Assembly: GCA_038087875.1 (NCBI GenBank)
Contig: CM075994.1
Location: 5,830,001 to 5,894,000, forward strand
Direction: 5' to 3'
Length of the DNA: 64,000 nucleotides
Source: Malacoraja senta
Lineage: Eukaryota
Shown here: one piece after another, positions 4,649-63,356 of the stretch
How the letters are laid out: each line of letters begins with the position of its first letter
How positions within the stretch are numbered: the stretch's first letter is position 1
Notes under the pieces: model-generated
What the model was told of the DNA's origin: nothing
The model's input: the letters and a program-made list of their open reading frames with translations, nothing else
Databases searched by the model: none
Position numbers and translations under genes: made by a program

Positions 4649-4666
4649 AGGCAGCAAGGAATGCAG
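4649..4666 (+). CDS. Microexon 1 (18 nt, EAARNA)
   Basis: ttcctataaacAG|AGGCAGCAAGGAATGCAG|GTaaat; phase 1-1; first residue depends on the upstream exon. Confidence 0.75.
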
Positions 4667-5975
4667 GTAAATGCATAATGGAGCTTTTTTAAAATCATAA
4701 ACGTGTGGTAAATCAAAAAACATCTTCAAATGACACGGTGTTTAAATTCAGTTTGCCCACCTGATCTTAAAAGGAAACCGCGACTTCTTATTTTTATTTT
4801 GTGTGCCACTGGTGCTTTAAAAAATACTTTCTATAGCTCACAGCTTTCAATATTAATCATTTGTGAACTTTTTCATTTTAATCATCTTTTTTCATAGATA
4901 TTTACAGCCTTTTCAACATATAAAAATATATATGATGATAGAATCCACTTACAAATCAAAAAGACACCGAGTCCACCTGGGTTTAGAATTCCTAATTGTA
5001 GCCCTTGGATTCTATTCGGCGATGTTGATCCAATCGCATACTAATCTGCTTGCCTATAAGAAGGGCTGAGTGAGGTAGAGATTGCCCGGAGTGGATCAGA
5101 GCGAGCTTGATTTTGCCCTTTTTTTAAATGTATACTCTACCCGTAAATTATATTTCTATTTTACGTATTATTCAATATCGAGAGTACAGTTGAATTCCCA
5201 TTGTATGAGCCTCCTACCGTTACAGCCCATGCCGTTCGGCATCTATTGGCTTATTTTCATCGTATTTAGGCATTTTGTCGTCATTTTTTATTGATCCCTC
5301 AAAGTCTGAAATGATCATCAGGAATTATATCTCAAAACTGGGCGGCAGATCCAATTCAGAAGCACATAATTTTCCACAATATTCACTAATTGTTTCCATT
5401 AAATAGAAAACATAGCTACTTGTTCAAGTGTTTTAGCAAAGTGTAATGCCGCAGCCTTTTCCATCACATTATATGTTAGCACCACAGATGCAAAAGTGTT
5501 TGGCTCCAGGATTAAGGGAAAAGCGTCTCTGTATTCAGGCCTGGAAAAAGCAAAGAAGCAAACCTTCATATTCAGCTCAACGATGCATTTTACCAGCAGT
5601 TCCAACGAAAATGTCACCAACGCAGCATTAACGCATATTTTGCTCTCTCCACCGGTGCTTTCTGACCTATTATTTTCTACATTCTGTTTCACATTTCCAT
5701 CATCCGCAGTTATGTTATTGGTCGCATTCCAAATCTGTTGCTTCTTTTCTGCCTGCCATATTCTTATCCTTTGCATAATTCTTCAGGGTGGTTTAGCGGA
5801 GATTGACAACATTTTGCGAGAAAACAGAGCGGCTTTGAATCTACTCCGTCACTCACTCACACTCCGTTTGTCTTGTCAGTACCCACATATCCATAAAAAA
5901 CGTGAATCCTTTAAATGTGATAATTCAATCAACTTGATGTAAAATCATCAACCAAAAAATGTGAAGAATTTCTCG

Positions 5976-6145
5976 TGTGTAAGTAGGAACTGTAGTTTGA
6001 ACAGAAGATCGACACAAAATGCTGGAGTAACTCAGGCAGCATCTCTGGATAAAAGGAATGGGTGACATTCTCGACCCGAAATGTCACCCATTCTTTCTAT
6101 GCAGAGATGCTGCCTGTCCCGCTGAGTTATTTCAGCATTTTGTGA
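5976..6145. mobile_element. Short palindromic Penelope-derived repeat
   Basis: Arms cacaaaatgctggagtaactcag...gggtgacatt and aatgtcaccc...ctgagttatttcagcattttgtg are inverted copies of the Penelope-like terminus seen at 43191-44070. Confidence 0.7.
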
Positions 6146-6390
6146 ATAATTTATTTCCCCACATATGTTGCCGGACATCACTTTCCACCTTTTCCTTCGA
6201 ATATCACATTTCCAATATCTGTGTAGTTCGCCTTTAAGCAATTCAACTGTTGGTGTTATGGTGTAACGTAGGAAAATGTCCGATTGTCGCGGTATAAGTG
6301 TAACATTTATCAGGTTCACAAAAATGTTTCGTCCCTAAAGGCGATATGGCGATGTCATATTAATTGCTCTCATTTCGTCACATTACACAG

Positions 6391-6426
6391 ATATTAAAAA
6401 AATGAAGAGACATTTAAAAGATGCTG
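6391..6426 (+). CDS. Microexon 2 (36 nt, DIKKMKRHLKDA)
   Basis: cattacacAG|ATATTAAAAAAATGAAGAGACATTTAAAAGATGCTG|GTatga. Confidence 0.85.
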
Positions 6427-6894
6427 GTATGAAATTATATAAACGTATTCTTCTTACGCTTAATGGCAGAAACTAATGTTTTATTGTTCTATAGCTTTCC
6501 CTCTCGTGAATTTGTTTATGGGCTATCATCGCTTGCAGCAACGTGTTTGCGGTAATTTTATTGAAATACAGTTGGTACGTTAGGCATAGTTAGATATCCA
6601 TAGACGCATCTGTGAATCTATCAAGAGCATTCATAGATCCATTATAAAATGCTCGAAGACGTTCGGCTATCTTAACTTTATGTAAATGTTAAAAGAAAAA
6701 TGTTTATTGTGTGGGGTTCTGGCCGCCCGATTAAAGGAACCATCTGGAGGCTCTGGGACGCGTACAGAAGAGCTTTACCAGAATGCTGTCTGGATTAGTG
6801 GACCTTGGCCATAATGGAAGGGTGCATTGTTTACTCTTGTGCGTCGGAGGCTGAGGGGAGACATGTTCGAAAATATTAAATTATGAGAGGCAGT

Positions 6895-61533: not shown

Positions 61534-61985
61534 TAAGATAGAGTTAGATAGAGCTCTAGGAGCTAGTGGAGTAAAGGGATATGGGGAGAAGGCAGGCACG
61601 GGTTATTGATATGGGACGATCAGCCATGAACACAATGAATGGGCTGAATGGACTCCTCTGGCTCGAAGGGCCGAATGGCCTCCTCTTGCACCTATTTTCT
61701 ATGTTTCTATGTTTCTATGTTTCATACAAGGTAAATACATATACCAATTATTCTAAACAACATTGTGCATGATGAAAGCATTTATGCGGATCAAAATATG
61801 GCAGCCATTTAATTAATTAATTGTGATACGTTTTAAACAACATTAGAGTCATAGTCATACAGCATGGACATAGGTCATATTACCCCCACTTGCCCACAGC
61901 AACCAACATGTCCCATCTACATTAGACCCACCTCCAGCGTTTGGCCCAACTATATACTATTAACAGTATCATCTTGTTTCTGTGG

Positions 61986-62240
61986 GTGTGTGTGTGTGTG
62001 TGTGTGTGTGTGTGTGTGTGTGTGTGTGTGTGTGTGTGTGTGTGTGTGTGTGTGTGTGTGTGTGTGCGTGCGTGCGTGCGTGCGTGCGTGCGTGCGTGTG
62101 CGTGCGTGCGTGCGTGCGTGCGGCGTGCGTGTGTGTGTGTGTGTGTGTGTGTGTGTGTGTGTGTGTGTGTGTGTGTGTGTGTGTGTGTGTGTGTGTGTGT
62201 GTGTGTGTGTGTGTGTGTGTGTGTGTGTGTGTGTGCGTGT
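61986..62240. repeat. (GT)n/(GCGT)n microsatellite
   Basis: Read directly; lies inside the Helitron-like element. Confidence 0.98.
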
Positions 62241-62776
62241 TATTGTATCTTCGCCAAAACCGTACACGGGAGCGCTGAATTTTTGCAGAACCTTACTCAG
62301 GTTTTTCCCGTCGTCGATCTTATCAAGTGTCCTTCAGATTTGATGTTATTTTACAAAAGTTATTGATATTGATATTGATAAGTTAATTGAAATTGATATA
62401 GATAAAGTTATTGATATTGATAAGTTTTAAAAAGCCAACATTGAAAATAATAACTGCCTTTGAGAGGGAGACTTCCAGCAGCGCTGACATTTTTGCAGAA
62501 CCTTTCATTTTTCCCGTCTTCGGTCTTGTCAAGTTTCCTTCAGATTTGATGTTATATTCACAAGTTATGTTATTCATATTTAAAGGATTAAAAAAAAACT
62601 TTGAAAAGCATAACTGCCTTTCACAGGGAGACCCTTCTAGCAACTTCCATTGATGATGTCACAATGCCATCTCACAGTCTACCAATTACAATGGGAACAT
62701 TTACTAAGCTGCAGAGTCATTGTTGACAACAGTAACGGCAGCTCCAACTGGGCCGCGCACCGTGAGGGGGGTGAGT

Positions 62777-62953
62777 GAGAGAGGGAGAGGGAGAAGGAGA
62801 AGGAGAGGGAGGGAGAGGGAGAGGGAGGGAGAGGGAGAGGGAGAGGGAGAGGGAGAGGGAGAGGGAGAGGGAGAGGGAGAGGGAGAGGGAGAGGGAGAGG
62901 GAGAGGGAGAGGGAGAAGGAGGAGAGGGAGAGAGAGGGGAGAGGGAGAGAGAG
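62777..62953. repeat. (GAGAGG)n purine repeat
   Basis: Read directly; lies inside the Helitron-like element. Confidence 0.97.
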
Positions 62954-63320
62954 CGTTGCGTAGGGGAAACTGGTGAAACGGTGGAAACGGGTTGCATTGG
63001 GGGAACGGGTGAGTGGTGGAATATCGCGTTGGGGCACCAGGCCTCCCGTGTGTCAGGGGCCAACGGGTCCCACTTGGTCTAGTATCCCTCTAAAATTGTC
63101 CAATCCATGTACTTCGTTTAAACTTTAAAATAGTCCCTGCGTCAACCACCTCCTCTAGCTACCCGTTCCATACACTCACCAGCCTTTGTGATCAAAGGTT
63201 AGCCCTCAGATTCCTATTATATCTTTCCCCTTCACCTTAAACTTATGTGCTCTCGTCCTCGATCCCCCTACTCTGGGCAAGGGACTGCATCAATTGATGT
63301 ATTCACTTTTACTATTTTAG

Positions 63321-63356
63321 AAGCGGATACCTTGAAGAAGACTATCGCTGATATCA
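63321..63356 (+). CDS. Microexon 22 (36 nt, EADTLKKTIADI)
   Basis: cacttttactattttAG|AAGCGGATACCTTGAAGAAGACTATCGCTGATATCA|GTaagt. Confidence 0.88.

What the first reader, a model, noticed from the sequence alone, without database searches (positions are those of the whole stretch)
4649..63356. Hidden microexon-array gene encoding a modular coiled coil
Seen: 22 segments of 18-36 nt, all on +, all AG/GT-flanked and phase 1-1, splice into 645 nt (215 aa) without a stop. That is about 1% coding across 59 kb of transposon-filled introns. The peptides are paralogous (EITKLKRQL, EIAKLKKNI, KITKLKKDA, EIRKL, EIKKL; ERDKDG, ERDKDN, TDKDN, DDKDS), which chance splice sites would not produce. None appears as a coherent ORF in the six-frame track. 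Established: tandem symmetric microexons encode the coiled-coil tails of butyrophilin and chicken BG proteins (mostly 21-nt exons) and parts of triadin. I do not recognise this peptide or this exon-size pattern as any of those. Inference: a possibly lineage-specific or unannotated gene whose rod length could be tuned by exon skipping.
Basis: partly seen in the sequence, partly recalled or inferred. Interest (0 to 1): 0.9.

Follow-up and report, generated by a model that had tools for sequence, protein, structure and literature searches.

The report
Giant microexon gene family building rods
The window cuts through the middle of a very large, duplicated fish gene that spells a long rod-shaped protein in dozens of tiny exons whose edges match the turns of the protein's helix; its start, end, expression and job are still unknown.

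Summary
All 22 exons are there (645 nt; no stop in the phase-1 frame, 20 and 17 in the others). Exon-like 18/27/36-nt segments number 24 on + against 4 on - and 3.5 in shuffles. The array is the middle of a much larger gene: I catalogued 78 exons (756 codons) over about 300 kb without reaching either end. Paralogues lie at several places on the same chromosome. A paralogue keeps all 6 aligned exons with splice sites and length intact. The unit is a 36-nt exon plus a 27- or 18-nt exon, tied to the coiled-coil register: 36+27 gives three heptads, 36+18 adds a stutter. Rod length demonstrably grew by genomic duplication of these units; tuning by exon skipping is untested (no RNA run available). 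Amino acids change almost as fast as silent sites (dN/dS 0.7-0.85, few sites). No terminal domain was found: no Ig, B30.2, lectin, fibrinogen, C1q or olfactomedin match could be tied to it. A signal-peptide-like first exon exists in two paralogues but is missing near the window's copy. It works like chicken BG tails or schistosome micro-exon genes but is not shown to belong to either.

The parts
4649..4666 (+). 18-nt linker exon (B18)
6391..6426 (+). 36-nt core exon (A)
10090..10116 (+). 27-nt linker exon (B27)
14777..14812 (+). 36-nt core exon (A), Cys at an 'a' position
15181..15198 (+). 18-nt linker exon (B18)
16683..16718 (+). 36-nt core exon (A)
18654..18680 (+). 27-nt linker exon (B27)
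22751..22786 (+). 36-nt core exon (A)
23432..23449 (+). 18-nt linker exon (B18)
26524..26559 (+). 36-nt core exon (A); intact in paralogue C4876 (32/36 nt)
27135..27152 (+). 18-nt linker exon (B18), weak acceptor; intact in paralogue (15/18 nt)
28676..28711 (+). 36-nt core exon (A); intact in paralogue (30/36 nt)
29356..29382 (+). 27-nt linker exon (B27); intact in paralogue (19/27 nt)
29907..29942 (+). 36-nt core exon (A); intact in paralogue (30/36 nt)
30225..30251 (+). 27-nt linker exon (B27); intact in paralogue (24/27 nt)
39283..39318 (+). 36-nt core exon (A), Cys at an 'a' position; a like exon at C18:5,141,093 (-)
39667..39684 (+). 18-nt linker exon (B18)
48359..48394 (+). 36-nt core exon (A), weak donor; a relative's genomic copy (P0001) keeps it at full length
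51324..51347 (+). 24-nt exon (or 18 nt from 51330); atypical sequence
55154..55189 (+). core-type exon, 36 nt (or 27 nt from 55163, which fits the helical period better)
56816..56851 (+). decayed core-type exon: peptide fits the A consensus but neither AG nor GT is present
57113..57139 (+). 27-nt linker exon (B27)
63321..63356 (+). 36-nt core exon (A); last in the window, the gene continues
1..64000 (+). whole window lies inside the gene; introns are repeat-rich (42% masked by local self-similarity, none of the 22 exons masked)

Best explanation
The window is the middle fifth of a giant protein-coding gene, one of a tandem family on this chromosome, whose product is mostly one long two-stranded coiled-coil rod (at least 756 residues, roughly 110 nm if continuous). 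SHOWN: the exons, their phase, the array's extent, the paralogues, the hydrophobic seam, and growth by duplication of exon units. The building block is a two-exon unit: the 36-nt exon covers heptad positions g-a-b-c-d-e-f-g-a-b-c-d, the 27-nt exon covers e-f-g-a-b-c-d-e-f, so the pair adds exactly three heptads; the 18-nt exon is the 27-nt one less three residues and inserts a stutter. Selection keeps splice sites, frame and seam while surface residues drift. INFERRED: a parallel dimer (Lys at d, Glu at g, Cys at a); export from the cell (all introns phase 1; signal-like first exon and an R-x-K-R furin-type motif in two paralogues); and a role as a long spacer or matrix/mucus-type structural rod whose length differs between family members and could be trimmed further by skipping exon pairs. 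I put the coding rod gene at about 0.93 and the secreted-rod reading at about 0.45.
For: Strand, length and shuffle controls. Array from -66,770 to +229,652 in window numbering, 78 exons, 71 of them multiples of 9 nt, with a like copy of the last exon 12.7 kb further on. Paralogue C4876 keeps AG, GT and length in 6 of 6 aligned window exons, where introns keep AG 128/216 and GT 136/245 and carry 1.9 gaps per 100 nt (chance about 1e-3 and 0.035). All 10 non-self copies of recently duplicated exons at +176 to +204 kb are intact at 79-100% flank identity. I, L, V, M or F fill 18/30 a and 13/30 d positions but 5/135 others; hydrophobic period 3.54-3.59, above the 95th percentile of 300 shuffles. 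3 Pro in 756 residues, no membrane segment. A strict exon pattern has 9 genome matches, 8 in these loci, control 0. Signal-like 55-codon ORF and a following short exon kept in two paralogues.
Against: No transcript evidence of any kind. dN/dS against the paralogue is 0.71 (6 exons) to 0.85 (8 exons) on only 34-43 silent sites, so amino-acid constraint is not shown; 5 of 17 core positions changed. The 78-exon list was curated by eye from candidates already filtered for an open frame, so its lack of stops is partly built in. The candidate first exon shows pN = pS (0.117), is frameshifted in one of two copies, ends in phase 2 and needs a bridging exon, and has no homologue near the window's copy; in the window's copy the bridging candidates have lost their acceptors or hold a stop. 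Neither end of the gene was reached, so a terminal domain or membrane anchor may exist. No structure could be predicted for the spliced product.
Confidence: 0.45

Rival explanations
1. It is the cytoplasmic tail of a BG/butyrophilin-like type I membrane protein whose Ig and membrane exons lie more than 33 kb upstream, with or without a B30.2 exon at the far end.
For: BG tails are the best described case of a coiled coil spelt in many split-codon microexons, with copy-number change and selection on the tail (PMC5938342, passages; PMC4046983, passages). This chromosome carries many B30.2 exons, as the chicken BG region lies beside a TRIM region.
Against: No 21-nt exons above background. No Ig or membrane exon in 33 kb upstream or in 5-10 kb upstream of two paralogues. 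No V-set (150 of 1517 candidates scored), C2-set (150 of 289) or MHC class I (110 of 110) match on C18 or C4876. The B30.2 exon at 4.56 Mb belongs to a widespread 87-88%-identical family and its 40 best copies are not at the array ends.
Confidence: 0.2
2. It is the extracellular stalk of a type II membrane protein, as in CD23-type lectins or tetherin-like TM-coiled-coil proteins, holding a distant domain or anchor far from the cell.
For: The 36+27 unit is 63 nt, the size I recall for CD23 stalk exons (recalled, untested). Four Cys fall at the same 'a' position. An R-x-K-R motif near the 5' end of paralogues would fit shedding.
Against: No membrane exon found upstream; the candidate's hydrophobic stretch is about 11-15 residues, short for an anchor. 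No Lectin_C match on C18 or C4876 among 29 (112 of 112 candidates scored, but split domains are easily missed). No BST2 match anywhere (an insensitive test).
Confidence: 0.15
3. It is a cytosolic structural coiled coil (filament, tether or sperm/cytoskeletal rod) that starts from a short ATG exon not yet found.
For: No signal exon is tied to the window's copy. Only 1 N-glycosylation sequon in 756 residues. K-D-x-E-hydrophobic motifs (10 copies) are common in cytosolic dimeric rods (own knowledge).
Against: Uniform phase-1 introns are typical of secreted and surface proteins (own knowledge). Near-neutral amino-acid change and tandem family expansion are unusual for core cytoskeletal genes (inference). 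The low sequon count is what the composition predicts.
Confidence: 0.1
4. The family is real but the window's own copy has recently lost its first exon and is a young pseudogene. (This can hold together with any reading above.)
For: The family-specific upstream block has only 2 genome matches, neither at this copy; homology stops at -71,971; acceptor losses and a stop in the 5' candidates; one decayed exon at 56816; dN/dS near 1.
Against: Every other tested exon of this copy is intact, including 10 of 10 recent duplicates and the two first microexons. The missing block may not be exon 1 at all, since it shows no sign of selection.
Confidence: 0.2
5. Chance splice-like sites or non-coding repeats; no gene.
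For: Exon identity to the paralogue (83%) is close to intron identity (about 81-82%); no RNA support exists.
Against: 24 vs 4 vs 3.5 counts, peptide similarity, heptad seam, splice-site and length retention in paralogues and duplicates; flanks of most 36-nt exons are not alike, so the similarity is confined to exons.
Confidence: 0.03

Closest known systems
Chicken BG proteins (butyrophilin family) (PMC5938342 and PMC4046983, passages read)
   Same: Multigene cluster; coiled coil spelt by many tiny exons with split codons; exon number varies between genes; heptad spans exon edges; near a B30.2/TRIM-rich region.
   Different: BG uses 21-nt exons (a few of 18 or 24), about 27-38 repeats, behind Ig-V and membrane exons. 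Here: alternating 36 and 27/18 nt, at least 78 exons, about 300 kb or more, no Ig or membrane exon found, no MHC class I match on the chromosome.
Schistosome micro-exon genes, MEGs (PMC4350168, passages read; DeMarco 2010 not held)
   Same: Most coding sequence in very small symmetric exons; gene families; transposon-rich setting; fast protein evolution.
   Different: Flatworm genes with no homology shown; MEG variation by splicing is demonstrated, here it is not; here the exons are paralogous and locked to a heptad register in one very long rod.
Triadin / junctin (recalled)
   Same: Many short phase-1 exons, K/E/D-rich.
   Different: The triadin/ASPH N-terminal domain matches only on C1, not here; this protein has a clear heptad seam and is multi-copy.
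CD23-type lectin stalks and tetherin-like TM-coiled-coil genes (recalled; the tetherin-origin paper was not held)
   Same: Exon-modular extracellular coiled coil; 63-nt unit; Cys in the seam.
   Different: No membrane exon, lectin domain or anchor found; unit split in two exons; far longer.

Membership tests
BG / butyrophilin | Tail built of 21-nt exons | tested here: not met
   21/30/39-nt candidates 4 on + vs 2 on -, background level; none of 78 catalogued exons is 21 nt
BG / butyrophilin | Ig-V (and Ig-C) exon upstream | tested here: inconclusive
   None in 53 open frames over 33 kb upstream or 30 frames upstream in two paralogues; genome searches scored only 150 of 1517 and 150 of 289 candidates, none on C18/C4876; further upstream unread
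BG / butyrophilin | Membrane exon before the microexons | tested here: inconclusive
   4 hydrophobic phase-1 candidates in 33 kb, none credible; further upstream unread
Butyrophilin / TRIM | Terminal B30.2 exon | tested here: inconclusive
   None at C18:6.05-6.5 Mb (+) among 150 of 696 candidates; nearest candidate is a generic TRIM-type copy; 3' end unread
BG / butyrophilin | MHC linkage | tested here: inconclusive
   0 of 88 MHC class I matches on C18, but most lie on unplaced contigs
Triadin / junctin | Asp-B-Hydro_N domain at the 5' end | tested here: not met
   2 matches, both C1:57.8 Mb (12 of 12 candidates scored)
Schistosome-type micro-exon gene (architecture) | Coding region mostly tiny symmetric exons | tested here: met
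   78 of 78 catalogued exons 12-54 nt, phase 1-1; terminal exons unknown
Schistosome-type micro-exon gene (architecture) | Variants made by alternative splicing | not testable with these tools
   No RNA run was offered
Schistosome-type micro-exon gene (architecture) | Secreted product | tested here: inconclusive
   Signal-like ORF in two paralogues, absent at this copy, no selection signal
Type II C-type lectin (CD23/CD209-like) | C-terminal lectin domain | tested here: inconclusive
   0 of 29 matches on C18/C4876; multi-exon domains can be missed
Tetherin-like | N-terminal membrane segment, coiled coil, GPI signal | tested here: inconclusive
   No BST2 match in the genome; no membrane exon found; C-terminus unread
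Secreted coiled coil with fibrinogen, C1q or olfactomedin head | Head domain downstream | tested here: not met
   0 of 45, 0 of 36 and 0 of 23 matches on C18 or C4876, all candidates scored

The most novel reading that the evidence does not exclude
A lineage-restricted vertebrate family of giant micro-exon genes with no globular domain: secreted or surface coiled-coil rods of 100 nm or more, assembled from a two-exon, register-locked module, diversified between copies by exon duplication and within a copy by paired exon skipping, with fast-changing surfaces suggesting a defence, mucus/matrix or reproductive role. It would be a vertebrate counterpart of schistosome MEGs that gene finders miss almost entirely.
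Probability: 0.3. Interest if true: 0.85.

Novelty: new variant of a known kind. Interest (0 to 1): 0.62.

Why it matters
If expressed, several genes of 300-500 kb, together a large share of a 12-Mb chromosome, encode a protein family that six-frame and homology annotation cannot see. The gene also shows unusually cleanly how exon size is fitted to protein geometry: one exon pair adds three heptads, the other pair adds a stutter, and recent duplications kept every copy in frame. That makes two questions directly testable: whether splicing of such arrays is coupled in pairs to protect the register, and whether rod length is set by DNA duplication or by splicing. If cDNA adds an Ig, lectin or B30.2 domain, it becomes an extreme member of a known immune family and matters less.

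Tried and rejected
RNA: no RNA holder listed for 22600-30400; the one run laid, X1, has flat depth over introns and exons and no exon-exon joints, i.e. behaves as DNA. This says nothing on expression.
First-exon candidates rejected: -71,449/-71,290 lie in a high-copy repeat; the hydrophobic stretch at -97,219 is part of a high-copy LINE.
A '23rd exon' at 28406 looked conserved, but that script hid insertions; the paralogue's copy is 28 nt. I withdrew it and recomputed dN/dS without it.
Protein searches: a profile of eight 40-residue open frames centred on 36-nt exons (about 70% intron translation, so weak) found 1 hit among 5924 candidates, P0001, an unnamed genomic-type ORF over the homologue of exon 48359. 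The 55-residue first-exon candidate found nothing; one search gave 3 hits, all repeat proteins matched on short stretches. The spliced peptide itself was not searched or folded, so existing automatic gene models in related species are not excluded.
Domain searches with no match tied to the gene: SPRY, V-set, Lectin_C, MHC_I, Fibrinogen_C, C1q, OLF, Asp-B-Hydro_N, BST2, C2-set_2. Pfam on 108 flanking open frames gave only transposon domains in 5 and one weak hit below cut-off. The idea that the B30.2 exon at C18:4.56 Mb ends a family member was tested and not supported.
Flank similarity between 36-nt exons: only the three at +178 to +198 kb are clearly alike, so the window's units are old duplicates.
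Literature: 0 papers; one unrelated paper each. Only open-access full text was searched; supplements were not read. Earlier scan findings: none on this genome or sequence; those concern other organisms and were not used.
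Full report
Coordinates. The window is C18:5,830,001-5,894,000 of a 1.94-Gb genome. Positions outside it are given in window numbering (negative upstream, above 64,000 downstream).

1. The observation. The phase-1 frame has 0 stops in 214 codons, the other frames 20 and 17. At one score cut, open candidates of 18, 27 or 36 nt number 24 on + and 4 on -, and 3.5 +/- 1.9 in 30 shuffles; with no frame test 27 vs 4; six neighbouring length trios give 1-7. 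The eleven 36-nt peptides are alike far beyond shuffles (10.6 vs -5.1 +/- 1.0), while their intron flanks are not alike, so the likeness is not that of a repeated element. None of the 22 lies in locally masked repeats, which cover 42% of the window. Two acceptors are ambiguous (55154/55163, 51324/51330), and a decayed 36-nt copy without AG or GT sits at 56816.

2. Extent. The same pattern runs from a 15-nt exon at -66,770 to a 15-nt exon at +229,652, and a 70%-identical copy of the last stretch lies at about +242,000. My list has 78 exons, 2,271 nt, 756 codons, 71 of 78 a multiple of 9 nt. It was picked by eye from score-filtered, frame-filtered candidates, leaves out one copy of a 46-49 kb block that is repeated at 99.5-99.8% across an assembly gap, and will hold some errors. 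I read 331 kb of this locus; neither a stop exon nor a sure first exon was in it.

3. A family. Intronic and exonic homology maps to C4876 (+; 75-84%) and C18:5.30 to 5.14 Mb (-) for the 5' and middle parts, and to C18:5.43-5.44 Mb (-), 4.84-4.86 Mb (-), 3.86 and 3.88 Mb (+) for the 3' part. Core-type exons also occur at C18:3.39-3.43 and 4.07 Mb (+) and C5:16.07-16.08 and 18.14 Mb. That is at least three further copies on C18, probably four or five, each up to 450-500 kb if the pieces join as they are ordered (inference); C4876 may be the 5' part of one. A strict exon pattern gives 9 genome matches, 8 in these loci and 1 on C5, and 0 for the control.

4. Selection. In 5.1 kb of alignment with C4876, introns differ at 18% of sites, carry 1.9 gaps per 100 nt and keep AG in 128 of 216 and GT in 136 of 245 cases. 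All 6 first-reader exons in the aligned stretch keep AG, GT, length and frame (chance about 1e-3 for the sites, 0.035 for no gap), as do the two first microexons. A seventh candidate, 28406, does not keep its length and I dropped it. In a block duplicated recently within this gene, all 10 non-self copies of 3 query exons are intact at 79-100% flank identity (a fourth query had no copy). Against this, exon identity is 150/180 (83%), dN/dS is 0.71 on 33.5 silent sites (0.85 with 8 exons), and 5 of 17 core residues changed, mostly conservatively. In P0001, a relative's genomic ORF, the exon differs at 5 of 12 residues while the translated flanks differ at 2 of 23. So the shape of the gene is conserved and the protein surface is not; the samples are too small to call positive selection.

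5. The protein. K 18%, E 15%, L 12%, D 10.5% (77-exon list); 3 Pro, no 19-residue hydrophobic segment. In 28 exons of 36 nt, strong hydrophobics fill positions 2, 5, 9 and 12 (0.89, 0.82, 0.61, 0.32); in 30 linker exons of 27 nt, position 4 (0.63), with Lys at 7 and Asp at 8. This fixes the register: core exon g to d over 12 residues, 27-nt exon e to f over 9, together three heptads; the 18-nt exon matches the last six positions of the 27-nt one and so deletes three residues, a stutter (18 = 7 + 11). On that register the window's exons have I/L/V/M/F at 18/30 a and 13/30 d positions and 5/135 others. Lys at d with Glu at g points to a parallel dimer (own knowledge). Four Cys sit at the same a position. 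All exons end in G or A, so no skip can create a stop at a junction, but only loss of a 36+27 pair leaves the register unchanged (arithmetic). Length change at DNA level is seen directly: tandem units of about 4 kb at +176 to +200 kb, and a 54-nt exon at +221,448 with an internal 9-nt repeat in three copies.

6. The ends. Upstream, two attractive candidates fell as repeats, and Pfam on 108 flanking open frames shows only transposon domains. Two paralogues share a block with only two genome matches that holds an ATG-opened frame: a signal-like start, 55 codons, then a phase-2 donor in the C18:5.30 Mb copy; the C4876 copy is frameshifted. About 850 nt on, a 21-nt (or 14-nt) candidate exon reads an R-x-K-R motif in the phase-1 frame, and either the 14-nt form or the 21-nt form plus a 17-nt exon would bridge phase 2 to phase 1. 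This would give signal peptide, short pro-piece, furin-type site, rod. It is weak: pN equals pS in the first exon, the window's copy lacks the block and has lost those acceptors or holds a stop there. Either the window's copy has lost or replaced its start, or these are not exons and the true start is further up. Downstream, no fibrinogen, C1q or olfactomedin domain lies on C18 or C4876 (all candidates scored); lectin, B30.2, V-set and C2-set tests are incomplete.

7. How it most likely works. Shown: a coding array under selection for frame and splice sites, encoding an amphipathic helix with a heptad seam, expanded by unit duplication, in several copies. Inferred: parallel dimer, about 110 nm at 1.5 angstrom per residue; export, from uniform phase-1 introns and the paralogues' 5' candidates; a spacer or structural role where length and charge matter more than exact sequence. 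I give the coding rod gene 0.93 and the secreted-rod reading 0.45; BG-like cytoplasmic tail 0.2; type II membrane stalk 0.15; cytosolic rod 0.1. Separately, about 0.2 that this copy is a young pseudogene.

8. Comparison. It works most like the chicken BG tail, described as heptad repeats in many 21-nt exons with split codons and varying exon number (PMC5938342, passages; PMC4046983, passages), and in gene layout like schistosome MEGs, where most coding sequence is in very small symmetric exons (PMC4350168, passages). It fails the 21-nt test for BG and the domain test for triadin; the other membership tests are open. No paper on such a family turned up in six searches with no hit and two with unrelated hits (87, 106), covering open-access text only. 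The spliced peptide was not searched, so unnamed automatic models in related genomes may exist.

9. Verdict. Real, larger and more structured than reported; new variant of a known kind (microexon-built coiled coil), possibly a new family. Interest 0.62, held down by the lack of RNA, termini and function.

Noticed in passing
window +70,900 to +166,000 (L003-L012, L023), across the N gap at +116,618: A 46-49 kb block is repeated at 99.5-99.8% identity on both sides of an assembly gap, with 9 of 9 compared exon copies identical. It may be a haplotype laid twice or a very recent duplication that adds about 8 exons.
   Followed up: partly
window 56212-56437 and 56816-56851: A GC-rich 19/40/99-bp tandem array lies about 400 nt upstream of the decayed core-type exon.
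   Followed up: no
window 15352-16300, 35271-35711, 53916-54114, 61981-62240, 62779-62953: Long simple repeats (about 950 nt of TC type, 440 nt of GT type and others) inside the introns, one starting 150 nt after exon 15181.
   Followed up: no
window about 880-3690 (+): Long LINE-like endonuclease/reverse-transcriptase stretch, read by eye; not tested with a tool.
   Followed up: no
L031:7448-7501 (window +221,448): 54-nt candidate exon with a 9-nt unit in three tandem copies: a possible route to exon sizes in steps of 9.
   Followed up: partly
L023/L024, window about +172,000 to +176,400 (-): Gypsy-type LTR retrotransposon with broken gag, RT and integrase frames inside an intron. Observed only.
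   Followed up: no
L019 about 1900-2200 (window -68,100 to -67,800) and both paralogues: Block with a TATA-like site followed about 190 nt later by AATAAA on the - strand, resembling a solo LTR, 1 kb upstream of the first microexon; my reading, untested.
   Followed up: no
L027:980-2100 (C4876:37.4-38.5 kb): About seven tandem copies of a roughly 147-bp unit upstream of the C4876 paralogue.
   Followed up: no
C5:16,069,083, 16,080,336 and 18,141,628 (-): Core-type 36-nt exon matches on another chromosome, perhaps more distant family members.
   Followed up: no
C18:4.56, 6.53-6.55 and 9.8-11.6 Mb: Dense B30.2/SPRY exon clusters on the same small chromosome.
   Followed up: partly
C2938:644,508-645,131 (-) and 616,873-617,367 (+): Both halves of an MHC class I peptide-binding region lie in single open frames of 502 and 1254 codons, suggesting intron-poor class I-like genes.
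   Followed up: no
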